44,032 nt of DNA from Fibrobacteria bacterium (lineage in GTDB: Bacteria; Fibrobacterota; Chitinivibrionia; Chitinivibrionales; FEN-1185), in assembly GCA_037447435.1 (NCBI GenBank), contig JBBIGR010000043.1:1-44032 (forward strand). The letters are read 5' to 3'. The notes below the pieces were generated by a model. It made no database searches, had not been told where the DNA came from, and saw nothing but the letters and a program-made list of their open reading frames with translations. This document shows, one piece after another, positions 3,509-21,339 of this stretch (within the stretch, counting starts at the first letter, position 1; each line of letters begins with the position of its first letter). The position numbers and the translations under genes were made by a program.

Positions 3509-4312
3509 GTGTTTTTCGAATTAAACCAATACATTACCGAGGTTTTTAACGAGTACCATAAACCCGGTTACATGGCTCTTGACCCATTGGAATTCGTGCA
3601 TGGGCTCAAAGGACTGGGAAATCGCGAAGTCGGCGGATTGCTATGTTCGGCATTGGCGTACGGTCGCGTTGAACAGATACGGAAAAGCATTGCCTCTGTT
3701 TTTGACATAACGGGAAAGAATGTGCTTCGGTACAGCGTCGAGGTACCGTATAAAGACAAAAAGCATGATTTTTCGACTTTTAAGCATCGGTTTAATTCGG
3801 GGTTGGATATAGCATTGTTACTGGATTGTGCCGGAACAATGATTTGCAGATTCGGATCGCTGGAACGATTGTTTACGCAAGGTCATCGCCGCGACCACGG
3901 TTCGATAAAACCGGCGCTCGAAGCGTTTTGCACGGAAATGATCTCGTTGGCAAATAAAAAAGAAAAGGGCGATATCGCGACGTTCGGTTTTCTTTTTCCA
4001 TTGCCCAGTTGCGGCAGCGCGTGTAAACGATTGAATATGTTTTTGCGATGGATGGTCAGGAAAAGCGACGGTATCGACCTTGGCTTGTGGAAATCGGTTT
4101 CACCGGAAGCGCTCATAATGCCTGTTGATACGCATATTGCGAAAATCGCCCGGCACTATAAAATGACAAAACGAAAAACTGCCGATTGGGCAATGGCCGA
4201 GGAAATAACCGGTGAATTGAAGAGTATCGATGTTCACGATCCCGTACGGTTCGATTTTTCTTTATGCCGGGCCGGGATGGTGGATTTTAGGGACATACAG
4301 AGGACGGCTTGA
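3509..4312 (+). CDS. TIGR02757/DUF2400 family protein
   Basis: DPLEFVH, LAYGRV, SACKRLNMFLRWMVR, DLGLW, PVDTHI, DPVRFDFSL motifs. Confidence 0.9.
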   Translation: MFFELNQYITEVFNEYHKPGYMALDPLEFVHGLKGLGNREVGGLLCSALAYGRVEQIRKSIASVFDITGKNVLRYSVEVPYKDKKHDFSTFKHRFNSGLDIALLLDCAGTMICRFGSLERLFTQGHRRDHGSIKPALEAFCTEMISLANKKEKGDIATFGFLFPLPSCGSACKRLNMFLRWMVRKSDGIDLGLWKSVSPEALIMPVDTHIAKIARHYKMTKRKTADWAMAEEITGELKSIDVHDPVRFDFSLCRAGMVDFRDIQRTA

Positions 4313-4317
4313 TTACC

Positions 4318-5976: not shown

Positions 5977-6024
5977 CACCCTATACACGTGCGAGAAAAA
6001 TCGTATCTAAGGAGCCTCCCGATT

Positions 6025-7248
6025 ATGAAGGTAGAGAAAAAACTTGCTTTTTTTATTATGTTGTTTGCCTCGTTTCAGGCAATCGCACAAAGCAATAGCC
6101 GCATAAGCGAGCTGATCGATCAAATCCGTAAGGGGCCGTCGTTGTACCGCACCGACGAAGCGGTTCTTGCCAGCGGCACGATTAATCCTTCGGGCAGCGT
6201 TCATGCGGCAAGCGGACCGGAATCAAAGGCCGCGATAAAGCAGAGTATCCGGGCTGCCGTGTTGCTCGGCGATATGGGAAACGACGCCAAGGAAGCGGTT
6301 GCAACGCTCATCGAGATGTTTCCGGTTGCCGAACATGTCGCTGTTATCAATAACGCGCAATACGGCCCGGGCATGGGCAGTTTTGAAGATTGGGTACAAA
6401 CCTATGTCGTGAGCCAGAAAAACAAATTCATTTTGGAGGCCCCGTTTATCGAATACAATACGTTGACTCGTTGCGAGAAATGGGTTGAGGCTTCGGCGTC
6501 GACGACCGTTAAGCAGCAACGGAAAGTGGGGACGCGCATAGTCGAGGCGCAAGTTGACATATATGTTACCCTTCGCATCAATGCCGCGGCATGCGCTTTG
6601 TCGCGGATTACCGGGTACGACGTCGGCAACACGCGCGAATCGTGGCGGGATTGGTATGACCGCAACGGCGCATTGAACGGGTATGTTTCATCGACCCCGG
6701 CGCCTGCGGCTTCGGAACCCCTGAAATCGCAAACGCAGGTTGAAAGCGCTTTTCCGGTTGTCGATTATACCACGGGTTTGCGATATCAAATTACATTGAC
6801 GACGGGGGATGTCGTCGTGGGTATCGTCGATGCCGTTGATGACAATTCGGTCACCATTAAAATCGATGACGGCGGAAGGTATAATTACCAGAAAAGTTTC
6901 ATTCGCAACAGGACATTGCTGTCCGTCGTTTCTCCTGCAACGACTGTTTCCCGGCAGGATGCGAGCGCACGGGCGCAATCGCAAACCTCGGACGGATCAA
7001 TACCCTATGAAAAACTGCTTGACATGTCGTATTCAGGAAAAACCATGGAAGTGACGATCAAAAACGGTTCGAAATTTATCGGAACATTGGGTGTGGTTGA
7101 CGTTTCTATTTTACGCATTAACGTTGAGGGAACCGAAATGCCGATATCCCGAAGCGTTATTTCCCGTATAGCTCCGGCTGCCGAAAAGGCACCGCAACCG
7201 AAAGGTCAGGATTCCACAGCTTCTACCGCAACGCCATCGTATTGGTAA
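6025..7248 (+). CDS. Secreted hypothetical protein with HEAT-like segment and two Sm-like beta domains
   Basis: RBS AAGGAG then ATG at 6025; signal peptide ending AIA-Q; two repeats of IxLxxGxxxxGxxxxVD. Confidence 0.6.
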   Translation: MKVEKKLAFFIMLFASFQAIAQSNSRISELIDQIRKGPSLYRTDEAVLASGTINPSGSVHAASGPESKAAIKQSIRAAVLLGDMGNDAKEAVATLIEMFPVAEHVAVINNAQYGPGMGSFEDWVQTYVVSQKNKFILEAPFIEYNTLTRCEKWVEASASTTVKQQRKVGTRIVEAQVDIYVTLRINAAACALSRITGYDVGNTRESWRDWYDRNGALNGYVSSTPAPAASEPLKSQTQVESAFPVVDYTTGLRYQITLTTGDVVVGIVDAVDDNSVTIKIDDGGRYNYQKSFIRNRTLLSVVSPATTVSRQDASARAQSQTSDGSIPYEKLLDMSYSGKTMEVTIKNGSKFIGTLGVVDVSILRINVEGTEMPISRSVISRIAPAAEKAPQPKGQDSTASTATPSYW

Positions 7249-7250
7249 GG

Positions 7251-7275
7251 GAGACGTAGCGCGCTACGTCTCTAC
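7251..7275 (-). repeat. GTAG-type REP-like palindrome
   Basis: Minus strand GTAGAGACGTAGCGCGCTACGTCTC, perfect palindrome right after a stop codon. Confidence 0.7.
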
Positions 7276-7308
7276 CACGGTTTCTATGACGGTTCTTTCG
7301 GGCGATGA

Positions 7309-7348
7309 ACAAAACTGTTTCATTTATACCGGTTCGACACAAAATTGT
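7309..7348. promoter_or_regulatory. Tandem ACA-N4-TGT candidate enhancer boxes
   Basis: ACAAAACTGT 7309-7318 and ACAAAATTGT 7339-7348. Confidence 0.6.
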
Positions 7349-7415
7349 ATCGGTTTTTTAAGCTCTGTTTTTACCCTTGCATCTTTTCCCGTCGGCAATG
7401 AACAAAGTATATTTA

Positions 7416-7431
7416 TGGTTCGATAATTGCT
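7416..7431 (+). promoter_or_regulatory. sigma54 (-24/-12) promoter for the P-II pair
   Basis: TGGTTCGATAATTGCT, GG-N10-GC. Confidence 0.65.
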
Positions 7432-7492
7432 TCTATTGCATAGATTGTTTCCATGTCATAAACCTCTCACTATGATCGCGCACAAAATCGCC

Positions 7493-7801
7493 ATGAAAAT
7501 GATTACCGCCATAGTTCGGTCCCAAAAATTACAGGACATTCAAACATTGTTGGTAACCGAGGGTATCGAGCGCTTTACCGTTGCTACCGTTATGGGATGC
7601 GGCAGCCAATGCGGATATTCGGAAGGCGGGAAGAAATCGGCGATTGAAGTGAATTTGCTTAAAAAAATCAAATTCGAAATCGAGGTTCCGGCAGATAAAG
7701 TGGGAGGGTTGGTCGATAAGATCATGACCCTGTGCCGTACGCCGCGTTTTGGGGACGGAAAGATTTTTGTCATGAATATTCCCGAATGTTTCGGAATGTA
7801 A
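7493..7801 (+). CDS. P-II family protein, divergent (no Tyr51, short C-terminus)
   Basis: MKMITAIVR, GCGSQ, LLKKIKFEI, TPRFGDGKIF. Confidence 0.85.
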   Translation: MKMITAIVRSQKLQDIQTLLVTEGIERFTVATVMGCGSQCGYSEGGKKSAIEVNLLKKIKFEIEVPADKVGGLVDKIMTLCRTPRFGDGKIFVMNIPECFGM

Positions 7802-7815
7802 GGATATAAAAAACA

Positions 7816-8154
7816 ATGAAAATGATCCACGCGATAATCCAGCCGTCGAAGCTTTCGGATGTCAAGCAAGCCCTGTTCGACGCGGGGCTCGGGAAAATGA
7901 CCGTGTATAGTGTCAATGGCTCCAGCCAATTGACTCATTACCCCGACGTGCATCGCGCCAACGATTATGAGCCGAATTTGATGTCCAAGGTGAAAATGGA
8001 AATTGCCGTAAACGATAAACAGGTCAAGAAAGTCGTGGAAGTCATTGCAAAAGCCGCAAAAAACGTTTTCAACGGCAATGGAAAGATTTTTGTTTACGAT
8101 ATCGAACAATGTTACAGGATCAGGACCGGAGAACAAGGCCCGCAGGCGATATAA
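7816..8154 (+). CDS. P-II family protein, divergent T- and B-loops
   Basis: MKMIHAIIQPSKL, KVKMEIAV, GNGKIFV, RIRTGE. Confidence 0.88.
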   Translation: MKMIHAIIQPSKLSDVKQALFDAGLGKMTVYSVNGSSQLTHYPDVHRANDYEPNLMSKVKMEIAVNDKQVKKVVEVIAKAAKNVFNGNGKIFVYDIEQCYRIRTGEQGPQAI

Positions 8155-8156
8155 CC

Positions 8157-8588
8157 GTGAATACCGCCGCAGAAGACGTTACACTTCAATTTTTGGAAAT
8201 GAAGCCCGGGGACAGGGAAAAGGGACATGTTCCGTACTTCAAATTCAAAATCGTGTTAGGCAATTCCGTTGACGTCGGGTATATAAATTTTCGCATCGGC
8301 GATACGGACCATATAAAATATTATGCCGGTCACATCGGCTATGAAATCAATGAAGCGCACAGGGGGCATTCCTATTCTTATTATGCATGCATTGCCCTGG
8401 CTCCGATTATTCGGCCGATTTACAATTCGGTTTTAATAACCTCGGACCCTGAAAACCGCGCATCCATCAGAATCATTGAAAAACTCGGCTGCGAATTCAT
8501 TGACGAAATAAATATCGATAAAAATGAAATCGGCTATCAAAACGGCGAAAGACGAAAAAAACGCTATCGCTGGTTTCCGCCCGATTAG
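8157..8588 (+). CDS. GNAT family N-acetyltransferase
   Basis: GHIGYEI..HRG, N.ASIRIIEKLG; start taken at GTG 8157. Confidence 0.8.
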   Translation: MNTAAEDVTLQFLEMKPGDREKGHVPYFKFKIVLGNSVDVGYINFRIGDTDHIKYYAGHIGYEINEAHRGHSYSYYACIALAPIIRPIYNSVLITSDPENRASIRIIEKLGCEFIDEINIDKNEIGYQNGERRKKRYRWFPPD

Positions 8589-10030
8589 TGGACGAGTAGC
8601 ACGCAATCGCCGGATTCCGTTCCGCCGCTTGCTGAAACCGCATATGTACCCGGTCTCAGGTTCAGTGCGGCGAGTGAAACACTGTTTCCCGACAAGCACA
8701 ATCTGCGGACCAGCGCGCCGTTCACGGTGAAAATTGTCAATTGCTTCATATTGCTTTCGAATCCTTGCAACAGAATGCGGCCGCAAACGATGGAAATGCG
8801 TTTTTTCACGGTTTGCGCATGAGGAAAAACGCGATTTGCTGCAGGCGGGGTTCCCGGAAACGCCGCCATATACGGTTTCAGCATATCGAGCTTCCATTGT
8901 ACGATTGTGGTCCAATCGTTTTCCAAAATCCCGCCGGTGTCGCCGGAATCCGGGTTTAAACTCCAAAATGTCCAGGAAATGTATTTGCAGAGCGTTGAAA
9001 GCAGCGTGGCAAACCAGATTTTTTCTTTCCCGGAAAATGACGACGAGTCGCGTATCCCGAATTCACCGAGCAGCAAATGGCCCTTGTTTTGATTTTTGAT
9101 AAATGCGAACGAACTGTCCCATTGGGCCGCGAGGTTTGCGGGAAATGCGGGATCGTCGAACCAGGGCTGGTCGAACACTTCGGGCCCGTATTCGTGCGGC
9201 GAATACACCAGCTTTGCAGGATTGGAAAGCACGACCGGATCGGTTTTGACGCCGCGTAAATTGCCACCCCACCATGATGAGGTGCTACCGAATTTTTCCA
9301 CGCCTTCAACGACGATCAAAAGGTTAGGGTTTGCAGCAAGAATGGCGTTACCGCAGCGCTGGGCAGCGCTTTTCCAATCGTAAAGGGGATCGTTGCCGCC
9401 CCATTGGGAACCGCCGGCCGAGGCGCTGCCGTGCGGTTCGTTATCAAGGTCGCATCCGACAACTGCGGGACTGTTTTTATACCGTGATGCTAAAAATACC
9501 CAATCGTTAATCCATTGTTGTTCCGACGTTTTCGCCGTATACCATACCAGTTCGCCCATATAGTTGTCAGCTTCGCGAGAATGATTGTCCAGCACCACCG
9601 AAATGCCCAATTCTTCGCATCCGCCTATAATGATATCCATTATTTCGAGCGGGCTTTTTTGGATAAGCTCCTTGTTCATTTCGGTAGGCGCGTTTTTCCG
9701 GTATGGGTCCACACCGTATGAATTGATGCTGTTTGCCGTGGCGCCGCTCCGAAGTATCGCATTGCACCAGGGAAGCCTGATGCAATTGAAGCCCATTTCC
9801 TTGACTTGCAATAGCATTCCTTTCCAGTCGCGCGCCCAAAGGCCGTGCGGGCACATATTCGATGTTTCCAAGCCGAACCAGTTAACGCCGGTGAGCCGTA
9901 CTTCGGTTCCGTTTTCGTCTTTGAGAGCGGCTCCGTCGACATGCAGGTTTCCTGCAAATCCGGGACAATGGAAAGCAAGAACAAGCAACAGGGCGCCTAT
10001 CGCAGAACCGAGGATACTTTTTATCATCAT
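8585..10030 (-). CDS. GH5 endoglucanase, secreted, with C-terminal sorting-like domain
   Basis: GVNWFGLET, GFNCIRLP, catalytic DNEPHG and LGEFG, YSPHEYG, WSLNPDSGDTGG; signal peptide. Confidence 0.93.
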   Translation of the reverse strand: MMIKSILGSAIGALLLVLAFHCPGFAGNLHVDGAALKDENGTEVRLTGVNWFGLETSNMCPHGLWARDWKGMLLQVKEMGFNCIRLPWCNAILRSGATANSINSYGVDPYRKNAPTEMNKELIQKSPLEIMDIIIGGCEELGISVVLDNHSREADNYMGELVWYTAKTSEQQWINDWVFLASRYKNSPAVVGCDLDNEPHGSASAGGSQWGGNDPLYDWKSAAQRCGNAILAANPNLLIVVEGVEKFGSTSSWWGGNLRGVKTDPVVLSNPAKLVYSPHEYGPEVFDQPWFDDPAFPANLAAQWDSSFAFIKNQNKGHLLLGEFGIRDSSSFSGKEKIWFATLLSTLCKYISWTFWSLNPDSGDTGGILENDWTTIVQWKLDMLKPYMAAFPGTPPAANRVFPHAQTVKKRISIVCGRILLQGFESNMKQLTIFTVNGALVRRLCLSGNSVSLAALNLRPGTYAVSASGGTESGDCVLLVH

Positions 10031-10048
10031 AACTCCTTTACTTTTATA

Positions 10049-12298
10049 CTATCGCTGCAAAACGATCGGTTTTGCCGAAACCGGTTTACCGTATTTGTCG
10101 GAAACGACGCAGATGTACATGCCGTTACCGAAGCCAAGCATCGAAATCCTTTGTGCATGGCCGACGGGGACCGCGGTTGCGATTTTGCCGTTTACCGCGA
10201 CGACGGATACCGTCGCGGCGCGGGGATCGGCGTCTTCGACTACAAGATAGTTGCCTATGTGTTTGACGAAGGAGCAGCTTTTTGATTTTGCAAATATATG
10301 GTTTTGGGGAGACACAATACTAATCGGGGGTTTGCCCGGTTCGGCACCCCAAATTTGTACACCGTTGTCGTATATGGGCGTGTTGGCCGATTCCATTGCC
10401 GTTTGCGACGAGCCGCCAACGGTTTCGTACGACCAATCGTTGGACGTGATCCACGACGATGCGATTGCGTTTTGCGGCAACGACAGACGGAATTGCGCTT
10501 CCCGTTTGTACGAGTCTTGCGTGCCGGGATACAAGGAATCGTTGTCATATGAAATCTCGACATAATAAATACTGCTTGAGCCGTTATACGGGGTGACACC
10601 GGAAATTTTTGCCTTGCCTTGAAGGTAATTGGTTTGCACCGTGATATCGTTTGCGGACAGTCCCGCAGAAATCGCTTCGCTTATGTTGAAAAAATACCGG
10701 TATGAGAGTTTCGTGCATATGCGGGCCGGCTCATTGGTTTTGTTGCATAAAACGGCCTTGATTTCGGTGAAACGGTCTCCCGATGCATTGATATTGGCTA
10801 ATACGTAAAATTGTTCGGATACCGAATCTTTGGGCGGAAATTGGGCCAGCGGCGCACCGCCGTATTCCTTATATAGGCGCGCAAGCGCACCGGTAAATCC
10901 GGCATTGTAATCGCAAGCCACTTCATTGGCGGTATAATTATTCCGTTGATCGGTGTAGGCGTCGCTTGCGTCGGGGCCGCCGACCAGGGCGCCGTACAGG
11001 GTGTGCCTGCACGCGACCGTATCGCTTGCATCGCCGGGATATACACCCTCGGCCGTTCTGTGATGTTCGCGGCACGGCGGGTTATTGCCGAAACCGACCA
11101 CAAACGATCGATGCAGCGGATTGCTTCCGAGAAGATAATTGATTTGTGAAACGGCAAAATCATGGTACCGCGTTTTCAACGAATCGCCGGTTATCCAATC
11201 CGAATAAATAAGGGCGAGGAACGCGGTGTTCGCCGCATACCGGTTTGACCCCCAGGTGTCAAGCCATGCAAGGCCGCCGGGCGTGTATTTTATTTTTTGC
11301 CCGTCGACGCCGATTGTCCAGTAATTAAGGCATCGCTCGGCATCGTCTTTATACTTTTGTTTGCCCGTGAGTTTAGCCAGAAGCACATAGCAGCCGAATC
11401 CCTTGTCGTCCCAGGCGATGGTCCATTTATAGGAGCGTGTTGTTGACTGCGGTTCCGTATTCAGGCTGTCGTAATATGATTGCGCTTTGAAAAGGTATGA
11501 GCTGTCTTTATTTGCCAAAAATAACCATGTGGCGCCCCAGACCAGTTCGTCTTTATAGCCGCTCCATGAATTGTAATATCCCTGCGCCGCAATGATTGAC
11601 GCATCGTATTTGCCGCGGTATGCGTCGGCAAACGAATACAACTGTTTCGCATGGGTGAGGCATATTGATGAATAAGCTTCGTCGGTCGTTTTGAATACAA
11701 TCGATGTTGCGGCCAAGGCTGCCGCGGCTTCGCCGGCCAAATCCGTTCCGGGATGCGTTGCATCGATTTTGGCGGAAGGTCGTTGCATTTTCGCCTCAAC
11801 AGATTCGGCGGGGCCCCAAAACGAATGATCGAGACCGCCGTCTCCTATTTGTCCGTAAAATTCGTTTGGACCGGTATGGCAACGAATAAGATAGTCGGCG
11901 GCAAAACGGATGGAATTGAGAATAAAAGGGAGTTGGCCGCTTTTTTCATAGGCGTCACGGTTTTCGATCACTCCCCAACACAGCATTGTCAGTGAAAAGG
12001 CCATAGGGAAATTGAATTTGACATGGTCGCCCGCATCGTACCATCCGCCGGTGAGGTCTTTTCCCGCGTCCGCACCGTCGTGGAGGCAACTTGGCCCCCG
12101 CCATTGCACCCTGTTCCATGCAGGCAAGGGGCCCGATTGTTGGCATTCGTAAAAGTAGATAGCCTTTTGAAGCGCTTCCCCGTAATTGGGTTCGCCGGTA
12201 GCATAGGAGTTTGATGCGTTTGAAAAGCATGCAATCGATATGAGAATAAAAACTACATACGTTTTCAACACGTCATTCTTAAAAATTTTATAATTCAT
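10049..12298 (-). CDS. GH9 endoglucanase with CBM3(c) module and C-terminal sorting-like domain
   Basis: DLTGGWYDAGDHVKF, HHR, NEVACDYNAG, then CBM3-like FTEIKA..LSYRYFFN..REAQFR. Confidence 0.93.
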   Translation of the reverse strand: MNYKIFKNDVLKTYVVFILISIACFSNASNSYATGEPNYGEALQKAIYFYECQQSGPLPAWNRVQWRGPSCLHDGADAGKDLTGGWYDAGDHVKFNFPMAFSLTMLCWGVIENRDAYEKSGQLPFILNSIRFAADYLIRCHTGPNEFYGQIGDGGLDHSFWGPAESVEAKMQRPSAKIDATHPGTDLAGEAAAALAATSIVFKTTDEAYSSICLTHAKQLYSFADAYRGKYDASIIAAQGYYNSWSGYKDELVWGATWLFLANKDSSYLFKAQSYYDSLNTEPQSTTRSYKWTIAWDDKGFGCYVLLAKLTGKQKYKDDAERCLNYWTIGVDGQKIKYTPGGLAWLDTWGSNRYAANTAFLALIYSDWITGDSLKTRYHDFAVSQINYLLGSNPLHRSFVVGFGNNPPCREHHRTAEGVYPGDASDTVACRHTLYGALVGGPDASDAYTDQRNNYTANEVACDYNAGFTGALARLYKEYGGAPLAQFPPKDSVSEQFYVLANINASGDRFTEIKAVLCNKTNEPARICTKLSYRYFFNISEAISAGLSANDITVQTNYLQGKAKISGVTPYNGSSSIYYVEISYDNDSLYPGTQDSYKREAQFRLSLPQNAIASSWITSNDWSYETVGGSSQTAMESANTPIYDNGVQIWGAEPGKPPISIVSPQNHIFAKSKSCSFVKHIGNYLVVEDADPRAATVSVVAVNGKIATAVPVGHAQRISMLGFGNGMYICVVSDKYGKPVSAKPIVLQR

Positions 12299-12398
12299 AT
12301 GACCATTCCGTTTGTTGATGGAGCTTCCTGACACGGCTTAAAATATAGACAAAAATTTCCGGATGCACACGGGTAAAGACGAGGTATCGGAAAAAAAA

Positions 12399-12416
12399 GG
12401 TGACAAAAATGTCCCC
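12399..12416. promoter_or_regulatory. Imperfect palindrome, candidate operator between divergent genes
   Basis: GGTGACA-AAAA-TGTCCCC; AAATGTCCCC recurs at 12540-12549. Confidence 0.45.
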
Positions 12417-12533
12417 ATAATAACCAGGATAAAACGATTAATAAAAATATGTAATAAATTGAATTTAAATAAAATAAATAGTATTAAATCTTGTGATTAA
12501 TGCGGATAATAAAATTCTATTCAAATAAATAGC

Positions 12534-12563
12534 TTGACTAAATGTCCCCGTATGTCGTATAAT
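12534..12563 (+). promoter_or_regulatory. sigma70-type promoter of the TIGR02147 gene
   Basis: TTGACT-N18-TATAAT. Confidence 0.65.
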
Positions 12564-12612
12564 TGTATTTGAACGATAAAGAGGCGAATCCGTTTCGACA
12601 AAGAGCTGCCGT

Positions 12613-13446
12613 ATGAAAAAGGTTTTCGAATATCTTGATTATCGCGATTATCTGAGCGATTTCTACGATTGTCAGAAAGAGCGGAATTATTTCTATTCGT
12701 ACCGGTTTATGGCAGCCAAGCTCGATATCGACCACAGTTTGCTTGTCAAGATACTCTCCGGTAAACGGCATATAACCGAGAAACACGTCAAACCGCTCGT
12801 GTCCCTCTGCAAGCTCGCAGGCAGGGAGGCTTTGTATTTTGAAACATTGGTGGAGTTTTGCAAATCAAAATCGGACCGGCAATCCAAAATTCTTTTTGAG
12901 AAGATGCTGAATTTGAAAAGCCATCAATCCCGGACGCTTGAGCACTATCAATATGAATATTTTAAAGCGTGGTACTATGCCGCGACGCGTTCGCTTCTTG
13001 ATTATTATGAATTTGACGGGGATTACGCGGCGCTTGCGGAAAAACTGAATCCGTCGATTACTGTTTCGCAAGCAAAGAAAACAATCGAAGTGCTCGACAA
13101 TCTGGGCCTCATAAAAAAAGATGAACAGGGAGTATACCGGCCGACCGACAAGCATGTGAGCACGGGGGAGAAGTGGCGATCCGTGGTAATTTCCGATTAT
13201 CAACGGGAAACCATACAGATGTCCGCCTGGTCCATCGAGCGCGATCCTCGTGAGACCCGGGACATATCTTCCGTTACCATGTCCGTTGACAAAGAGTGCT
13301 TTGACGACATTATCCTGATGCTCAATGAATGCCGGTCTTCAATAATAAAACGGGTGAACGAAATCCCCGACGGCCGGCGCGATCGCGTGTATCAACTTAA
13401 TATGCAATTTATACCCCTGTCGAGAATTGAAGGGGGAATGAAATGA
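12613..13446 (+). CDS. TIGR02147 family putative transcriptional regulator (HTH + DUF4423)
   Basis: VFEYLDYRDYL, FYSYRFMA, WYYAATR, RDISSVT, VYQLNMQFIPLS. Confidence 0.9.
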   Translation: MKKVFEYLDYRDYLSDFYDCQKERNYFYSYRFMAAKLDIDHSLLVKILSGKRHITEKHVKPLVSLCKLAGREALYFETLVEFCKSKSDRQSKILFEKMLNLKSHQSRTLEHYQYEYFKAWYYAATRSLLDYYEFDGDYAALAEKLNPSITVSQAKKTIEVLDNLGLIKKDEQGVYRPTDKHVSTGEKWRSVVISDYQRETIQMSAWSIERDPRETRDISSVTMSVDKECFDDIILMLNECRSSIIKRVNEIPDGRRDRVYQLNMQFIPLSRIEGGMK

Positions 13447-15128
13447 CCAGCACCCGGCTATTGGCATACTTTGCAATGGCGGCAACCGCGCTTTTCTTTG
13501 CCTGTACGAGCGATCGTATCGCCGGCGGTACGACGACCGAAACGACCAACGGTCTTCGTGCGGGGATTTATCTGCCCGACGGTACGCCCGTTACCGGGGC
13601 CCGGGTCGTGTTGCGTCCCGATGCATATATTTCGGGTGAAACTTCCTGGGACAGCCGTATGTTGCGCGATACGCTCACCTCTTTGAACGGGTCGGTTTTA
13701 TTCGGGAACTTGCCTAATGGTAATTATTCTCTGAGTGCGGTTACCGCGGATTCTTCTTTGGGTGCCGTTGTCTTTCACATTACCTTATCGGACGGAAACC
13801 GTTCGTCGGACACGGTAAATCTCGATTCGGTCAAGCTTCGCGCCACCGGTGCCGTTTCCGGTCTCATCGCGAATTCTTCGGTTGACGCCGATTTGCGCGT
13901 GACAATAAACATGCAAGGTACTGAATTTGGTTTTGTCGCATTGCCCGGGACTTCGTTCGTATGGCGCGGATTGCCGGAAGGAACCTATCGGGCCGTCGTC
14001 TCGGCGAAGTATCCGGCGCTGCTCGACACGCAGGCGGTGAATATCCAAAGCGGGGATACGGTTCTTCTCACTTCTGCGCCTTTTATCGATACGATGTCGT
14101 TTTACGGTTTCAAAAAGGTGCGTTTCAATACCGCAGGATCCGGTGCGAACGTCGCGGGCGATGTGACCATGTTTCCGTTGTTGATACGATTAACAAGTAA
14201 TAACAAGGAAGACTCGCTTTTGTTCGCCCACACCGACGACCCGTCCCGATTGCGTTTTTTGGCCAGTGACGATCACACCTGGCTTCCGTTTGAAGTTGAG
14301 TCGTGGAGTACGGCGGGAGCAATTAAGGATGCATCGATTTGGGTTCGCACCGCGGTCATTTACGGCAATAATTCGACGGACTATCTGCGTATTTGCTATG
14401 GCGCGGCTCTGCCGGACGGTCGGGCCGCCTCTGAAGTCTTTGCTCAGGGCGCCGGGTATGCGAGCGTTTGGCATCTTGGCGAACAAAACGGGGACACGCT
14501 TTTTGACGCCACGGGAATGTTCAATGTGAAAAGCCTTGCCGCATACCGCTTTCCGCGTGCAGGGATCATAGACGGATGTCAATGGCTTGACGGAACAGGA
14601 GATTTCATCGACGCAGGATCGGACGCGGGGTATTTGAACGATGTGCATCAGGCAAGCATGTCGGCGTGGATAAATGCAGAGGCATTTCCGTTTCACGTGA
14701 TCCATATCATGGGCGGCGGTGCGGCCGAGCGCGCATATGTCTATGTTGACAGCAGCGGCAGAGTTGTCGTGGGGGGATCGTCGTCGGACAACGCGGGGGG
14801 CGGACGGGTATCGGTCAGCCTGGATACGCTTCAGACTGGGACATGGTATTATCTGGCCGCGGTCCTTGATTATGAAAACGACAGCATCGCCGTGTATGTG
14901 AACGGCGAGCGAGTTGCCGTTTCGACAGCGGGCCTGTTTGCAAATGCGAGCACGCCGCCGACAAATTCTTCGCGCGCGGTCATGGGTGCTCTTCCCGATG
15001 CCGCTTCAGGTTTTTCCCGCGGCAGTATCGATGAATGCCGCATTTTCCGCGGACCCCAGTCGGCAGATTGGATCCGCCTATGCTACCAGACCCAGCGGAT
15101 AAATTCTTCGTTTTTCATTTCGCCGTAA
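13443..15128 (+). CDS. Lipoprotein with carboxypeptidase-regulatory-like, DUF2341-like and LamG domains
   Basis: Lipobox FFAC followed by AGGTTTETTNG; FPLLIRL..LPFEVE..IWV; SVWHL; GSIDECRI..SADWI. Confidence 0.8.
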   Translation: MTSTRLLAYFAMAATALFFACTSDRIAGGTTTETTNGLRAGIYLPDGTPVTGARVVLRPDAYISGETSWDSRMLRDTLTSLNGSVLFGNLPNGNYSLSAVTADSSLGAVVFHITLSDGNRSSDTVNLDSVKLRATGAVSGLIANSSVDADLRVTINMQGTEFGFVALPGTSFVWRGLPEGTYRAVVSAKYPALLDTQAVNIQSGDTVLLTSAPFIDTMSFYGFKKVRFNTAGSGANVAGDVTMFPLLIRLTSNNKEDSLLFAHTDDPSRLRFLASDDHTWLPFEVESWSTAGAIKDASIWVRTAVIYGNNSTDYLRICYGAALPDGRAASEVFAQGAGYASVWHLGEQNGDTLFDATGMFNVKSLAAYRFPRAGIIDGCQWLDGTGDFIDAGSDAGYLNDVHQASMSAWINAEAFPFHVIHIMGGGAAERAYVYVDSSGRVVVGGSSSDNAGGGRVSVSLDTLQTGTWYYLAAVLDYENDSIAVYVNGERVAVSTAGLFANASTPPTNSSRAVMGALPDAASGFSRGSIDECRIFRGPQSADWIRLCYQTQRINSSFFISP

Positions 15129-15231
15129 GTTTTTTATGTATGCGGAAAGCCTTTTGAAATGGAAGTTGCCCCAAAGTAATTTCCCAATCCGGGGAAATAT
15201 TTATAATCAAAAAAATCTAATGGAAATAGCG

Positions 15232-16011
15232 ATGAACAACAATATTGAAAAGTCTTTGAGTAAAGTTCCGCAAGTTACTGTAATGTTTTGGATAATTAAA
15301 ATCTTTGCAACGACAGTAGGGGAAACCGGGGGTGACGCACTTTCAATGTCTTTGCAACTCGGATACGGAATAAGCAGCCTGATTTTTATCGGCTTCTTTT
15401 TTGCATGCCTTTTTGCCCAGATTAAAACAAAACGCTATTATGCATTTGTCTATTGGTTTCTTGTGATTGCGACGACTACCGTTGGAACAACGATGTCGGA
15501 TTATTTCGATCGGTCTTTGGGAATGGGTTATATCAAATCTTCAAGCATACTTTTTTTATGTGTTATCGGTGTTCTTATATCTTGGCATTTTATTGCCGGT
15601 CGTATAGAATTCCAAAGAATCAGCACGCGCAAAGACGAAGTTTTTTATTGGTTGACAATTTTGATTTCCAATACCCTTGGAACAGCACTTGGCGATTTCA
15701 CCGCGACGGACTTGGGATGTGGTTTCCAATGGGGTGCACTCGTATTCCTTGGAATGCTTGCATTGATTGGACTAGCTTTTTTCCTGACAAAAATTCCCAA
15801 GAGCATATTGTTTTGGTCTGCATACGTTTTAACGCGTCCTCTGGGTGCAACCCTGGGCGACACTATTACAAAACCGATTACCGAAGGCGGTTTTAACCTC
15901 GGGCGCATTACGTCGTCTGTAGTGATTGCAGCGCTCATGTTCGCCTTTGTCGTTATTCGTTACAGGAAATCAGGGCTTGTGCCGTCGTTAGTACGAGTGA
16001 AAAAGGATTGA
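15232..16011 (+). CDS. COG4705/DUF347 repeat membrane protein
   Basis: SKVPQVT.FWIIKI.ATTVGETGGD, TLGTALGD, VLTRPLGATLGD. Confidence 0.88.
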   Translation: MNNNIEKSLSKVPQVTVMFWIIKIFATTVGETGGDALSMSLQLGYGISSLIFIGFFFACLFAQIKTKRYYAFVYWFLVIATTTVGTTMSDYFDRSLGMGYIKSSSILFLCVIGVLISWHFIAGRIEFQRISTRKDEVFYWLTILISNTLGTALGDFTATDLGCGFQWGALVFLGMLALIGLAFFLTKIPKSILFWSAYVLTRPLGATLGDTITKPITEGGFNLGRITSSVVIAALMFAFVVIRYRKSGLVPSLVRVKKD

Positions 16012-16015
16012 CATG

Positions 16016-16043
16016 AAAAAAGCCGGGAGGCATCCCGGCTTTT
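16016..16043. terminator. Bidirectional intrinsic terminator
   Basis: AAAAAAGCCGGGA-GGCA-TCCCGGCTTTT between convergent genes. Confidence 0.85.
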
Positions 16044-16068
16044 AATACGTCTTCATACGCTGTATAAG

Positions 16069-16893
16069 TTATTTTTTATCAGCTTTTTTGAACCAATCCT
16101 GAATTGCGGGAAGGTTTATATCAATTTGAACGGTTGCAGTTGGTTTTAATGCATCACTATCATTCCAAATATCATACCCTATAATGAAACTCGCATCCGG
16201 AACAATTGCATATGACAACCCGAAAGACAGTGCACCATATCCACTTTTTCCACTGAAATAATCGATAGCAAGCCATAATTTGTCGCTGATCTCACTCATG
16301 GTTCGATCCCATGACAGCAAAAAACCTTTGTCATCCGTCGTTTTATAAGTTTGTGTTGCAGTATCAAATGAACTAAGTACGTAAAATACACTTTTGGGGT
16401 TAACGCCGACGCCGCCTTTGAAGCCGCCAACCGAAAATCGTCCGAGCTTCCAAATGTTTTTTGCAAGCAAACCATAAACAACATTATACGAAGTGGCATT
16501 TGGTGCATCCGCTATTTGTGTTCCGAAATCAAATCCACCAAATGCAATTGCAGGCATATTTTTAAAAAAAGCATCTTCAGGCACGCCCAATTTTGCGTTA
16601 TAATACATTGGATAGTGGTGGTTTGAACCAAGGTCGCGATAATCGATGCCGATTTCCAGCCCCAAATTTTTAAAAGGCAATACACCGACTGTTATGCCTC
16701 CATTTGTGACCGTTGGTGCATCTCCTGCTAATACATCAGTTTTTATGTATGAATCCCAACCGAGGTGAAGAACGCCAAACCCTTGAACATCAGTAGAAGG
16801 AATCCATATCTGTGTTGACGGAGTAGCACTTATATAAGAATACGATAATAACAGTGCCGTAACCATTGTTACTATTGGTAAAAACTTTCTCAT
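16069..16893 (-). CDS. Secreted, probably outer-membrane beta-barrel protein, last gene of the amtB operon
   Basis: Signal peptide MRKFLP...ISA; alternating amphipathic strands (LEIGIDY, LSFGLSY, FIIGYD). Confidence 0.6.
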   Translation of the reverse strand: MRKFLPIVTMVTALLLSYSYISATPSTQIWIPSTDVQGFGVLHLGWDSYIKTDVLAGDAPTVTNGGITVGVLPFKNLGLEIGIDYRDLGSNHHYPMYYNAKLGVPEDAFFKNMPAIAFGGFDFGTQIADAPNATSYNVVYGLLAKNIWKLGRFSVGGFKGGVGVNPKSVFYVLSSFDTATQTYKTTDDKGFLLSWDRTMSEISDKLWLAIDYFSGKSGYGALSFGLSYAIVPDASFIIGYDIWNDSDALKPTATVQIDINLPAIQDWFKKADKK

Positions 16894-16944
16894 GTTCAGG
16901 CTCCTTGTTTGAATATATTCAAAAGTTGTAGTCATTTTTTAACA

Positions 16945-16978
16945 TACCCCTCCCAAATCAATTTGAAGAGAGGGGTAT
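16945..16978. other. Intergenic hairpin between glnK and the porin-like gene
   Basis: ATACCCCTC...GAGGGGTAT arms. Confidence 0.5.
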
Positions 16979-16997
16979 AGGGCTAACAATCTAACAA

Positions 16998-17345
16998 TTA
17001 AATAGCTTCAGAACCTCGTTCACGCGTGCGAATTCTTAAAACATCCTCAAGGGGCAGAATAAAAATCTTACCATCGCCGATTTTGCCTTCTGCGCCTGTT
17101 CGTGCGGCCTTTGTTATTGCCTCGATTGTGGGTTCTAAAAATTCATCGTTTACTGCGATTTCGAGTTTTGTTTTACGGACAAAATTGATTTTATATTCAT
17201 GGCCGCGATAAATCTCGGTATGTCCTTTTTGGCGGCCAATACCTTCGGCATCAGTCACGGTTAACCTGAATACTTCGATATGACTTAATGCTTCCTTGAC
17301 AGATTCGAGTCGAGTGGGCTGTATAATTGCGATAATGTATTTCAT
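16998..17345 (-). CDS. glnK: P-II nitrogen regulatory protein (canonical)
   Basis: GIGRQKGHTEIYRGHEY (Tyr51), KIGDGKIF, RIRT; adjacent to amtB. Confidence 0.93.
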   Translation of the reverse strand: MKYIIAIIQPTRLESVKEALSHIEVFRLTVTDAEGIGRQKGHTEIYRGHEYKINFVRKTKLEIAVNDEFLEPTIEAITKAARTGAEGKIGDGKIFILPLEDVLRIRTRERGSEAI

Positions 17346-17411
17346 TTTTTCTCCTTTTCTTATTTTAAAATAGTCGGCTTTTAACGATTTTAATCAATGA
17401 GAAAGTATGGG

Positions 17412-18785
17412 TTAAGCCCTTTCTCCGTGTGCGCTCTGGTCCATACCCACCATTTCCTCCTCAGGCGTTACTCTGAGTCCCACAACAGCCTTGACTATGA
17501 GGAATATCACTATTGTTACAATCGCATCGTAACCAATGGTTGTTCCTATGGCGATTAGCTGAATTTTGACCTGTGCCGGATTGCCGTAAAAAAGCCCCTT
17601 TCCTGCCGAATTGATGGCTGGATCTGCAAGAAATCCGGTCAAAAGCGCACCAATTGTTCCGCCAATGCCATGAATACCAAATGCATCGAGAGTATCATCA
17701 TAACCGAATTTAGATTTTACGAATGCAACCATGCAATAACAAACGACACCGGCAATTGTGCCGATGATTAGGGAGCCGCCAACATTGACAAATCCGGCAG
17801 CCGGAGTGATAGCAACCAAACCCGCAACAGCTCCCGAAGCAAGACCCAGAACCGTTGGTTTTTTATTGAAAAACCATTCTGTAACCATCCAAGCAATAGC
17901 TGCCATAGCAGTGGCGGTATTAGTATTGATAAATGCGGCTCCTGCAATTCCGTTTGCAGCAAGTGCTGAGCCGGCATTAAAACCGAACCATCCAAACCAC
18001 AAAAGCCCGGCGCCTGTGACAGTTGCGGTTAAATTGCAAGGGATAAGGCCCGGTTCGTTACGTTTTCCTAAAAAGAGAGCGCCAATAAGCGCGGCTATAC
18101 CGGCATTGATATGAACAACCGTTCCTCCTGCAAAGTCAAGAGCGCCAAGTTTTGCAAGAAACCCGTTTCCCCAAACCCAGTGAGCTACCGGCAAATAAAC
18201 AAATGTTAACCAGAGAATTGAAAAAAGCACCCAAGCGGAAAATTTCATTCTTTCAATATATGCACCGCTTGCCAATGCTACCGTGATTGCCGCAAAGGTC
18301 AATTGGAATACGACAAAAATAAGTTCGGGAATTGTTCCGGAAAGCGTATCGACTTTAATTCCGTTCATCATGAATTTATGCAGATTACCAATAATTCCAT
18401 GCACATCATCGCCGAAAGCAAGTGTATAGCCATAAACTATCCACAAAACACTTACAATGCAGAATGTGACAAACGACATAGCAATCACATTAAGCGTGTC
18501 CTTTTTCTTTGCTATACCTCCATAAAATAAGGCCAAACCAGGTATGGTCATAAGCATTACCAGTGCTGTTGCCACTATCATCCAGGCTGTATCTCCGGTA
18601 TTTAAAACTGCTACTGGAGCAGAAGTCGCTGGAGCCGGCGCCACAGTTGCCGGCGCAGCAGCTGTACTTACTATTGTCGAAATCGCTTTTGCCGATGTAT
18701 CTGATACTGCAGATTGTCCAACGGAATACGCTACAAAAGCAAGGACAAACCCCACTATCATTGCTACCAGTGCTTTTTTAATCAT
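17412..18785 (-). CDS. amtB: Ammonium transporter
   Basis: GLALFYGG, DFAGGTVVH, LWFGWFGFNAGS, DDTLDAFGIHG. Confidence 0.97.
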   Translation of the reverse strand: MIKKALVAMIVGFVLAFVAYSVGQSAVSDTSAKAISTIVSTAAAPATVAPAPATSAPVAVLNTGDTAWMIVATALVMLMTIPGLALFYGGIAKKKDTLNVIAMSFVTFCIVSVLWIVYGYTLAFGDDVHGIIGNLHKFMMNGIKVDTLSGTIPELIFVVFQLTFAAITVALASGAYIERMKFSAWVLFSILWLTFVYLPVAHWVWGNGFLAKLGALDFAGGTVVHINAGIAALIGALFLGKRNEPGLIPCNLTATVTGAGLLWFGWFGFNAGSALAANGIAGAAFINTNTATAMAAIAWMVTEWFFNKKPTVLGLASGAVAGLVAITPAAGFVNVGGSLIIGTIAGVVCYCMVAFVKSKFGYDDTLDAFGIHGIGGTIGALLTGFLADPAINSAGKGLFYGNPAQVKIQLIAIGTTIGYDAIVTIVIFLIVKAVVGLRVTPEEEMVGMDQSAHGERA

Positions 18786-19016
18786 TCTTTCCTCCTATTT
18801 TTAAAAATGACAATAACGATATAACTAAAAGCATTTCTTTAAACACGAACATTTCATTCACATTTCTAACCTTTAATGGGACTGCATCTGCTTCATATGG
18901 GAATTTCCTATCTAGGTTGAGGTTTGTTTTTATTTTGTGTTATGTATTGTTCTCAATATTTTGGTTTTTTATTTTGTAATATCCTGAATGCGTGATAAAT
19001 TTTCGTAAATAAATAA

Positions 19017-19033
19017 TGCAAGCGTCGTGCCAA
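19017..19033 (-). promoter_or_regulatory. sigma54 promoter of amtB-glnK
   Basis: Minus strand TTGGCACGACGCTTGCA, near-consensus. Confidence 0.9.
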
Positions 19034-19099
19034 ATCATTCGGTGAGAGTGCGTCTGGGTAAGGAGTATTGTCTTCTTCGTAATTAAAGCTCTAAGCGTG

Positions 19100-19138
19100 A
19101 CATTTTTGTTTAATTTTTTGTAAAAAATACAAAATTGT
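19100..19138. promoter_or_regulatory. Tandem ACA-N4-TGT candidate enhancer boxes
   Basis: ACATTTTTGT 19100-19109 and ACAAAATTGT 19129-19138. Confidence 0.65.
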
Positions 19139-19313
19139 ATTAAAATGTTTTAATTTGTTTAAAGGTAACCCCGGCGGTAATTATAATATGTAAACATATT
19201 GTCCGAACTAATTAACAATACAATTTTCCTCAATATTGTAGTTATTAAAAGGAAAAAGAATAGCTATTCAACCGATATGTAATTTTCGCAGTGCGCAAAA
19301 GATTGGAAACGAA

Positions 19314-19598
19314 TTATGGAAGCAAAAAATGGCCAATATTGGGGGAAGTTGTTTGGTTTTTTTCGGATGAAAGGTTATACCATTTGGTAAGATTATCGCT
19401 CGTATCCGGATTTTGTCTTTTAATTAAGATAAAATCGATATTGTATTTTTTGATTTTATACTGAATTTTGCGTTTGCTAATTCCCAGTAGTTTAGCAGCC
19501 TTGCTTTGATTTCCATGAGTGTCTTTAAGAGTTTTCTCTATAATATTTTTCTCAAAAGAGTTAATAATTTGATCCAAGTTTTTTTGCAATTGTTCCAT
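19314..19598 (-). CDS. Stand-alone Fis-type HTH protein similar to the C-terminus of the upstream activator
   Basis: FEKNIIEKTLKDTHGNQSKAAKLLGISKRKIQYKIKKY; RBS AGGAG upstream. Confidence 0.85.
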   Translation of the reverse strand: MEQLQKNLDQIINSFEKNIIEKTLKDTHGNQSKAAKLLGISKRKIQYKIKKYNIDFILIKRQNPDTSDNLTKWYNLSSEKNQTTSPNIGHFLLP

Positions 19599-19637
19599 AC
19601 TTTTATACTCCTGCGATTGTGAAGAAAAGTATGTAAT

Positions 19638-19653
19638 TGCAATAGACGTGCCA
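19638..19653 (-). promoter_or_regulatory. sigma54 promoter of the mini-HTH gene
   Basis: Minus strand TGGCACGTCTATTGCA. Confidence 0.85.
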
Positions 19654-19665
19654 GATAATAATCCT

Positions 19666-21246
19666 TCAGGTTGTTCCGCGTAACTTACGATAATCTATTC
19701 CATAATTCTGGATTTTATATTGAATAATTCGTTTAGTCGTTCCAAGTATTCGTGCTGCTTCACTTTGGTTGCCTCTAGCATCTTTCAATGCTTCTACAAT
19801 GATTTCCTTTTCATAGGATGCGACCATAGATTCAAAATTTTTTTCACGAACTCCAGACTTATCCAATTCCTTCATTTGTAGTGTTGGAGGTAAATCATGC
19901 CCGTTGATCACATTGCCGCTTGAAACTAAAACCGATCGCTCAATTACATTCTCAAGTTCTCGAACATTTCCTGGCCAATGATACGCGGAAAGCATGTCGA
20001 TTGCAGGGGTAGAAATTCTTTCGATTTTTTTATTATGGGTGCCAGTATATTTTTTTACAAAATAATCAGCAAGTAATAAAACATCGGCACCACGTTCGCG
20101 AAGGGGGGGGAGTAAAATTGTGAATACATTAATCCTATAATATAAATCTTCTCTGAATCTACCTTCTGCAACATCTATTTCAAGGTTCCGATTTGTAGCA
20201 CAAATCAATCGTACATTAACTTTGACTGAATTTGATCCGCCAACACGTTGAATTTCCTTTTCCTGAATAGCTCTTAAAAGCCGTCCTTGAGCCGACAATG
20301 TCATTTCACCAACTTCATCAAGAAATAATGTTCCATTGTCTGCAGCTTCAAACCGTCCAATTCTTTTTGTAAGCGCCCCAGTGAACGATCCTTTTTCGTG
20401 CCCAAACAGCTCGCTTTCCAATAGGGATTCAGGTAAGGCTGCACAATTCACGGGAATAAATGGGCCATGAGAAAAAGGGCTTTTCTTATGAATGGCCTGT
20501 GCAACAAGTTCTTTTCCCGTGCCTGTTTCACCGCGAATAAGAACCGTTGTTGATGAAGGAGCTACTTGAGCTATCTGTCGGTAGACTTCGCGCATCGAAC
20601 CACTATTGCCTACCATTTCATCGGGTTTTCCTTTTTCCTCCAGTGTCTTGCGCAATTCCAAATTTTCTTTTTCAAGAGCTTGAATGCGCTCTTGATGTTT
20701 TCGTCGTGCTACGACAACCTGAGCGATTAAGTCTGCCACTGCTTCTAAAAACTCCAACTCACCATCTAACGTTTTTGCATTATGGACCGCCACCTTGTCG
20801 ACAGATAATGCCCCAACAACTTCATCACCGGATTTAATCGGAACACAAAGGAATGCTAGATCCGTATCCTTGAGATTTTTTCTTGCGCCGGTTTTATCGA
20901 GAAATGTTGGTTCATTATGCAACTTTGGAATTGCAATCGGTCGTCCTGTTGCAACAACCTTACCTGTAATTCCTTCACCCATGCGATATTTGCCACGTTG
21001 TTTACTGCTTTCGGATATCCCTTTGGCAATGTCAACACGTACTTCAGAATTAGTAGGGTTAACAATAGAAATCATGCCCCGCTTCATTCCTGCGTTAAAT
21101 TCTAATATTTCAAGTACGTTTTCCATAACGCCTTCCATAGTGCCGCCCGAATTTAACAGACGGGCAATTCTATACAAGGCAGTAAGCCCGTTGAAACTGA
21201 GATGTGGGTCGATTTCTTTAGAACCGTCTTGAAGTGGTAATGACAT
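19666..21246 (-). CDS. NifA-like sigma54 enhancer-binding protein (GAF-AAA+-HTH)
   Basis: GAF motif [53 protein letters not shown]-terminal Fis HTH. Confidence 0.92.
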
Positions 21247-21326
21247 ATCTCAACCTTTATTTAAATGGAAATTATGAAGTTCATAACGGAAAGGAGATTA
21301 AAATAAAAAATTAAAATAATTAATGG

Positions 21327-21339
21327 CACAAAAATGTAT
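21327..21339. promoter_or_regulatory. ACA-N4-TGT box upstream of the activator gene (possible autoregulation)
   Basis: CACAAAAATGTAT, similar to CACAAAATTGTAT (7338) and TACAAAATTGTAT (19128). Confidence 0.5.

What the first reader, a model, noticed from the sequence alone, without database searches (positions are those of the whole stretch)
7309..21339. Candidate sigma54 nitrogen regulon with a shared ACA-N4-TGT tandem enhancer at identical spacing
Seen: the P-II pair promoter has boxes at 7309 and 7339 (30 bp apart), the nearer ending 69 bp before the -24 GG (7348 vs 7417). The amtB promoter has boxes at 19100 and 19129 (29 bp apart), the nearer also 69 bp from its GG (19100 vs 19031). A further YACAAAAWTGTAT lies upstream of the activator gene (21327). 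Known: classical NifA binds TGT-N10-ACA and NtrC binds TGCAC-N7-GTGCA, and neither matches. Inference: the GAF-AAA-HTH protein at 19666-21246 activates ammonium uptake and all three P-II genes through its own operator, in place of NtrBC.
Basis: partly seen in the sequence, partly recalled or inferred. Interest (0 to 1): 0.85.

Follow-up and report, generated by a model that had tools for sequence, protein, structure and literature searches.

The report
Nitrogen enhancer pairs, NifA-like activator
Pairs of a short palindrome sit in front of this bacterium's ammonium-uptake and ammonium-assimilation genes and likely let a neighbouring NifA-like activator switch them on when nitrogen is scarce; the same core site was already predicted by computer for sulfate reducers, and the local extra is a small stand-alone copy of the activator's DNA-binding part that would act as a brake.

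Summary
A scan of the whole 5.05-Mb genome for paired boxes plus a sigma54 promoter gave 6 hits; the top 5 are nitrogen genes: second amt-glnK-glnD, gltBD, the P-II pair, amtB-glnK and a nif-linked activator. The boxes are conserved at amt and glnA across the order, mostly where the activator is found. A GTDB pattern scan found the same layout in many phyla; 68 of 121 loci precede core nitrogen genes. The 69-bp distance is one of several helical phases, not a fixed value. The P-II pair promoter is missing in 4 of 4 congeners that have the pair. The ACA-W4-TGT core and this kind of regulon were predicted in 2015 for Desulfovibrio DVU1949 and DVUA0143 (PMC4641369), and this scan noted it before in at least seven other genomes. 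Binding is untested. Extras here: a conserved stand-alone copy of the activator's HTH with its own sigma54 promoter, and three relatives that keep activator and boxes with no P-II gene found. Verdict: real, new member of a predicted kind.

The parts
7309..7318 (.). distal box of the P-II pair promoter (ACA-AAAC-TGT, weak)
   Evidence: matrix score 6.9
7339..7348 (.). proximal box of the P-II pair promoter
   Evidence: score 19.2, second best single site of the genome
7416..7431 (+). sigma54 -24/-12 element (imperfect -24 half)
   Evidence: none found before the pair in 4 congeners
7493..7801 (+). atypical P-II protein a (start inferred; no Tyr51 equivalent, short C-terminus)
   Evidence: Pfam P-II, alignment
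7816..8154 (+). atypical P-II protein b (Tyr51 equivalent kept, GRQ and GDGK motifs altered)
   Evidence: 71-72% orthologues in 4 congeners
16069..16935 (-). 288-aa protein behind glnK, possibly an outer-membrane channel; likely third gene of the operon
   Evidence: no Pfam hit; Atlas neighbours unnamed, one cluster auto-named outer membrane channel; a look-alike in G018 has its own box pair and sigma54 site
16998..17345 (-). glnK, canonical P-II
17412..18785 (-). amtB ammonium transporter
   Evidence: TIGR00836 471 bits, cut-off 343
19018..19032 (-). sigma54 -24/-12 element of amtB, full consensus
19100..19109 (.). proximal box of amtB
   Evidence: score 8.4; same place in congeners
19129..19138 (.). 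distal box of amtB
   Evidence: score 14.3; same place in congeners
19314..19598 (-). 94-aa stand-alone Fis-type HTH, copy of the activator's DNA-binding domain
   Evidence: 54% identical over 52 aa; 19 clusters, HTH_8; recognition helix nearly the same as the activator's
19639..19653 (-). sigma54 -24/-12 element of the stand-alone HTH gene
   Evidence: also in 4 congeners
19666..21246 (-). GAF-AAA+-HTH sigma54 activator, 526 aa, GSFTGA loop
   Evidence: orthologue in 28 of 41 genomes
21328..21337 (.). single box about 80 bp before the activator start, no sigma54 site behind it; likely autoregulatory
   Evidence: best single site of the genome, 19.6; a box scoring 14 or more within 260 bp in 15 of 27 orthologue loci, partly circular

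Best explanation
The paired ACA-W4-TGT palindromes lie in front of sigma54 promoters of nitrogen genes and are likely the enhancer through which the adjacent one-component GAF-AAA+-HTH protein acts as this bacterium's global nitrogen activator in place of NtrBC. Shown: site layout, targets (amtB-glnK, amt2-glnK-glnD, gltBD, P-II pair, nif-linked activator; single boxes at type III glnA and at the activator gene), conservation, co-occurrence. Inferred: two dimers bind boxes about three helical turns apart (29-32 bp), nucleate the AAA+ ring and contact sigma54 holoenzyme at an in-phase distance (about 47, 58, 69, 80 bp); low nitrogen releases the GAF/coiled-coil clamp, more likely through a small ligand than through P-II; the single box at its own gene represses a non-sigma54 promoter; it induces the nif-linked paralog (a cascade) and the stand-alone HTH, which would compete for the boxes.
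For: Matrix built only from relatives' sites ranks, among 540 sites scoring 9 or more, the activator box, the P-II box, the amt2/gltB box and the glnA box 1st to 4th. Full layout scan: 6 hits in 5.05 Mb, top 5 nitrogen genes; one pair is shared by two divergent sigma54 promoters. amt loci: layout within 1.5 kb in 23 of 27 loci from activator-bearing genomes (18 of 22 without own locus and the 4 used in training) against 1 of 3 without. Type III glnA: best box 13 or more in 11 of 20 loci with activator (7 of 16 without training loci) against 1 of 10 without; background 51 of 4197 upstream regions reach 11. Activator in 28 of 41 genomes, nifD in 7 of 41, so it is not nif-specific. Activator gene lies beside amt, glnK, glnA or gltB in many relatives. 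GTDB scan: spacing 29-32 bp in 100 of 120 distinct loci though 27-44 was allowed; distances cluster near 45-48, 54-60, 66-72 with none at 49-51, period 11 R=0.38, 0 of 5000 uniform draws; 68 of 121 precede amt, glnA, P-II, gltB, glnD, nifH or nitrite reductase. G015, G026, G037 (96-98% complete) have activator and paired boxes at glnA but no P-II match. Closest solved GAF is Aquifex Nlh1, described as ligand-released and linked to nitrogen assimilation (PMC9866876, passages).
Against: No binding, start-site or expression data. G018 (96% complete) has the full layout at amt but no activator found by two queries; G012 (83%) has a pair at glnA without it. The core is not exclusive: the GTDB scan also hit phenol hydroxylase, acyl-CoA dehydrogenase and other genes (53 of 121 not assigned to core nitrogen genes, 21 of them 700-bp loci), and DVUA0143 is predicted to use it too. 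9 of 20 glnA loci in activator genomes lack a box, and own glnA shows no sigma54 site. The P-II pair promoter is absent in 4 of 4 congeners. Genomes are related, so counts are not independent.
Confidence: 0.8

Rival explanations
1. The boxes are served mainly by the nif-linked paralog on contig C86 (46% identical), and the window's protein does something else.
For: DVUA0143, the Desulfovibrio nif activator, is predicted to bind the same core. The C86 nifH promoter has a sigma54 site, but no box was scored near it, so the paralog's own site is unknown.
Against: A full-length paralog of that tier shows in only 7 of 41 genomes in the listed rows, and five of those also carry nifD, while boxes occur in genomes without it (G003, G004, G015, G026, G034). 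The strongest box sits at the window activator's own gene, and the paralog has a different recognition helix.
Confidence: 0.07
2. The boxes are real but a different, unlinked factor (a receiver-type enhancer-binding protein or a nucleoid protein) binds them.
For: About 21 sigma54 activators in the genome. G018 has boxes and no activator found. In Desulfovibrio a response regulator, DVU3220, is also assigned to DVU1231-1233.
Against: Boxes track the activator in presence and absence and lie at its own gene. The tested Geobacter receiver-type regulator GnfM uses TGC-N11-GCA, another motif (PMC2995071 supplement).
Confidence: 0.08
3. Same regulon, but the nitrogen signal reaches the activator through P-II (GlnK with GlnD) binding the GAF domain, as for Azospirillum and Herbaspirillum NifA, not through a free ligand. 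This changes the sensing step only.
For: Two canonical glnK genes and glnD are in the regulon; P-II control of NifA GAF domains is known (reference titles in PMC9866876; otherwise recalled).
Against: No P-II match in 3 activator-bearing genomes of 96-98% completeness that keep paired boxes.
Confidence: 0.35
4. Chance matches in AT-rich intergenic DNA.
For: Single boxes are only mildly enriched (93 against 69 expected); one pair lies at the atp operon and was not found in congeners.
Against: Pairs exceed every shuffle, rank at nitrogen genes and recur with fixed spacing across phyla.
Confidence: 0.02

Closest known systems
Predicted DVU1949 regulon of Desulfovibrionales (Kazakov et al. 2015, PMC4641369; sections 5, 6, passages, supplements 2, 3 in part, 5)
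   Same: One-component sigma54 activator, nitrogen metabolism and transport, 9 operons, proposed autoregulation, 16-bp sites with CA-W4-TG core (9 of the first 30 rows exact ACA-N4-TGT); sites also listed before the nif activator gene in strain Miyazaki. iorAB-linked proteins that fit DVU1949 are 46% identical to the window's.
   Different: Flanks TT(T/G)ACA there, (T/C)G(A/G)(T/C)ACA here; several listed pairs 41-42 bp apart, here 29-31; other recognition helix; separate clade in my tree; no iorAB link here. Prediction only, no binding test for DVU1949 in what I read.
DVUA0143, predicted nif activator of Desulfovibrio (same paper)
   Same: C(G/T)ACA-W4-TGT(C/A)G sites; GAF-AAA-HTH.
   Different: nif targets only; 40% identical; NifA-type recognition helix.
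Aquifex aeolicus Nlh1/Nlh2 (PDB 4G3K, 4G3V; via review PMC9866876, passages; primary paper not held)
   Same: Closest solved GAF domain (E 1e-24); speculated role in nitrogen assimilation rather than fixation; ligand-released coiled coil.
   Different: Its DNA site was not seen by me; ligand unknown.
Proteobacterial NifA
   Same: Domain order; 37-42% identity; best NCBIfam model.
   Different: Below cut-off; site TGT-N10-ACA (recalled) absent; no NifL; mostly in genomes without nifD.
NtrB/NtrC and Geobacter GnfL/GnfM (PMC2995071, abstract, passages, supplement 2 part 2)
   Same: Same job and targets: tandem enhancer, amt/glnK/glnA, cascade to nif, likely repression from overlapping sites.
   Different: Receiver domain and kinase instead of GAF; TGC-N11-GCA site.

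Membership tests
sigma54 enhancer-binding protein | AAA+ domain with GAFTGA-type loop and C-terminal Fis-type HTH | tested here: met
   PF00158 E 2e-72; GSFTGA, a variant listed as functional in PMC4641369; PF02954
NifA (TIGR01817) | score over curated cut-off | tested here: not met
   514.8 against 528.85 bits
NifA (TIGR01817) | TPRQ-type recognition helix and TGT-N10-ACA sites (recalled) | tested here: not met
   different helix; no such site in three promoters
NifA (TIGR01817) | tied to nitrogenase genes / NifL | tested here: not met
   28 of 41 genomes have it, 7 of 41 have nifD; no NifL over cut-off
NtrC / GnfM | receiver domain; TGC-N11-GCA site | tested here: not met
   GAF instead; no such site; no ntrC over cut-off in the genome
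DVU1949-type nitrogen regulon | ACA-W4-TGT core sites | tested here: met
DVU1949-type nitrogen regulon | nitrogen assimilation and transport targets, site at own gene, site at nif activator gene | tested here: met
   gene names for the DVU locus tags are recalled, the paper gives only the function class
DVU1949-type nitrogen regulon | one clade with DVU1949 | tested here: inconclusive
   quick tree, 79 rows: window clade plus 15 Desulfovibrionales proteins (SH-aLRT 98); iorAB-type clade (100) joins only in an open fork
DVU1949-type nitrogen regulon | co-transcription with iorAB/DVU1952 | tested here: not met
   neighbours are tetR, HTH, amtB
DVU1949-type nitrogen regulon | activator binds the sites and responds to nitrogen | not testable with these tools
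   needs EMSA, footprint, transcript mapping

The most novel reading that the evidence does not exclude
An NtrBC-free, P-II-independent nitrogen switch shared by many anaerobic phyla: the GAF domain reads a nitrogen metabolite directly, and in this genus the activator induces a duplicated stand-alone copy of its own DNA-binding domain that competes for the enhancer and caps the response.
Probability: 0.25. Interest if true: 0.72.

Novelty: new member of a known kind. Interest (0 to 1): 0.42.

Why it matters
How phyla without NtrBC sense nitrogen is poorly described; about 370 GTDB stretches are estimated to hold the strict layout, in Desulfobacterota, Spirochaetota, Planctomycetota, Verrucomicrobiota, Omnitrophota, Nitrospirota, Fibrobacterota and others. 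This genome gives a clean, complete target list and ready probes for a regulator type that has been predicted but, in the papers I could search, not tested. Proteins auto-named 'Nif-specific regulatory protein' would be wrong evidence for nitrogen fixation. The stand-alone HTH offers a simple feedback test.

Tried and rejected
Fixed 69-bp distance: rejected, phases vary. NifA- and NtrC-type sites: none. IHF sites: only 2-mismatch matches, uninformative. atp operon pair: no sigma54 site, not found in 5 congeners. Box for the stand-alone HTH promoter: none in this genome (best 3.1), single boxes in 2 of 4 congeners. Complex prediction of GlnK trimer with the GAF domain: no answer, score 0.00, not used either way. 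RNA runs: none was listed. Exact 12-mer counts in 5 activator-less genomes were uninformative. Nitrogenase alpha/beta not found in this assembly, but nifH-nifI1 run to a contig end, so this may be an assembly gap. The careful tree did not finish; 5 partial rows were dropped. In one search a filter quirk and my ORF caller hid gltB and the P-II pair; one search is the corrected scan. Batchelor 2013 (Nlh1/2) is not held. Literature: DVU1949 appears in 1 paper; a six-term search for stand-alone HTH competitors returned 0; none of the 10 listed papers mentions Chitinivibrionales; seen as listings only. Subscription journals and RegPrecise were not searchable; supplement 1 of PMC2995071 and rows 31-87 of the DVU1949 hits were not read.
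Full report
Observation. The window holds 7 strict ACAWWWWTGT against 1.49 expected (0 of 100 shuffles). In intergenic DNA of the genome 3 pairs lie 27-33 bp apart against 0.05 expected (0 of 60 shuffles). Names of the nearest proteins place the organism in Chitinivibrionales/Chitinispirillaceae, Fibrobacterota.

The site. From 32 sites around the activator gene in 26 loci of relatives I built a matrix; it widens the core to an 18-bp palindrome, (T/C)G(A/G)(T/C)ACA-W4-TGT(A/G)(T/C)C(A/G). This genome's sites were not in the training set. The four best single sites in 5.05 Mb are before the activator, the P-II pair, amt2/gltB and type III glnA; amtB is 8th and the nif-linked paralog 10th. Asking for pair plus sigma54 element gives 6 hits: amt2-glnK-glnD and gltBD (one pair, two divergent promoters, 47 and 80 bp), the P-II pair (69), amtB (69), the paralog on C86 (34, weak promoter match), and one low intragenic hit. 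Gene names off the window rest on BLAST to window proteins, Pfam and my reading of the translations.

Conservation. The activator has orthologues in 28 of 41 genomes searched (27 at 57% or more, one at 47% that groups with them). amt is found in 25 of these 28 and in 3 of the other 13. The layout stands before amt in 23 of 27 loci from activator genomes (18 of 22 without circular cases; two misses have little upstream DNA) and 1 of 3 without. For type III glnA a box of 13 or more is in 11 of 20 against 1 of 10. Against the reading: G018 has the layout and no activator found; the P-II pair in 4 of 4 congeners follows the upstream gene directly with no box or sigma54 site, so that promoter is a local gain or relic; the two proteins are atypical P-II.

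Breadth and geometry. A strict pattern scan of GTDB (21 of 64 parts read) gave 121 loci in many phyla. 68 of 121 have amt (29), glnA types (26), P-II, gltB, nifH, glnD or nitrite reductase within 700 bp (L129 repeats L128). Others include phenol hydroxylase and acyl-CoA dehydrogenase genes, so other activators use the core too. Box spacing is 29-32 bp in 100 of 120; the distance to GG peaks near 46, 57 and 68-69 with a gap at 49-51.

The protein. GAF-AAA+-HTH with GSFTGA; just under the NifA cut-off. No NtrC or NifL passes cut-off in the genome. nifD is in 7 of 41 genomes, five of them among the seven with a C86-type paralog, so that paralog is the likely nif activator and itself sits behind a box pair: a cascade like NtrC to nifA (inference). 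The closest solved GAF is Aquifex Nlh1. Three near-complete relatives keep activator and paired boxes at glnA with no P-II match, which favours direct ligand sensing; 2-oxoglutarate is a guess by analogy with Azotobacter NifA (reference title).

Between activator and amtB lies a 94-aa stand-alone HTH, 54% identical to the activator's DNA-binding domain, with a nearly identical recognition helix, a ribosome-binding site and its own consensus sigma54 promoter. It is in this genome and 4 of 5 congeners and forms 19 clusters of 68-94 aa with a conserved tail. With no AAA+ domain it cannot activate; competition for the boxes is the simplest role (untested). Its promoter has no box of its own here; the amtB pair lies about 515 bp downstream.

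What is known. Kazakov et al. 2015 (PMC4641369) predicted a one-component activator, DVU1949, controlling 9 nitrogen operons through 16-bp CA-W4-TG sites, with autoregulation, and the nif activator DVUA0143 with the same core. I saw no binding test for either. Their supplement 2 seems to have rows permuted: the row named DVU1949 equals the C-terminus of the plasmid protein whose promoter is that of DVUA0143, while the row named DVU0569 matches iorAB-linked proteins, the context given for DVU1949. Those are 46% identical to the window's protein; 15 of 81 genomes of that order carry a closer form (51-55%) with the window's recognition helix, often beside glnK-glnD. The quick tree does not settle one-to-one orthology. 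GnfM of Geobacter uses an NtrC-like site. Earlier notes of this scan report the same motif in seven other genomes; they are leads, not support.

Verdict. Real regulatory sites; regulon and activator assignment likely (0.8); works like NtrC, is not NtrC or NifA; new member of the predicted DVU1949-like kind with local features. Interest 0.42.

Noticed in passing
window 19314-19653 (-): Stand-alone copy of the activator's HTH with its own sigma54 promoter; a 62-aa stand-alone HTH also follows a box pair and sigma54 site in a Nitrospirota locus (L156).
   Followed up: partly
PMC4641369 supplement 2 against L182, L216-L220: DNA-binding-domain rows for DVUA0143, DVU0569 and DVU1949 appear permuted.
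   Followed up: partly
G000 C86:167-3865 (L267): nifH and nifI1 run to the contig end, nifDK not in the assembly; divergent nif-linked activator behind a box pair, molybdate transport genes next to it.
   Followed up: partly
G000 C35:35643: Single strong box before type III glnA overlaps a TTGACA-led sigma70-like promoter and no sigma54 site was seen; could be a repression site.
   Followed up: partly
G000 C6:111871-111910 (L265): Box pair 30 bp apart before the atp operon, no sigma54 site, not found in 5 congeners.
   Followed up: yes
window 4309-8154 (+): A PTS enzyme I-like gene and a 419-aa unknown gene precede the atypical P-II pair; in congeners the pair directly follows the 419-aa gene, which suggests an older operon and possibly a NifI1/NifI2-like heteromer.
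   Followed up: partly
window 8585-12334 (-), 12403: GH5 and GH9-CBM3 cellulases; a lone ACAAAAATGT lies 70 bp before the GH9 frame.
   Followed up: no
G005 C31 (L006, L059): Two copies of the activator (81% and 70%) on one contig, with two amt genes and glnA nearby.
   Followed up: no
L096, L105, L136; L093, L101, L117: The same core pair precedes phenol hydroxylase genes in sphingomonads and acyl-CoA dehydrogenase genes in Kurthia, presumably served by other activators.
   Followed up: no
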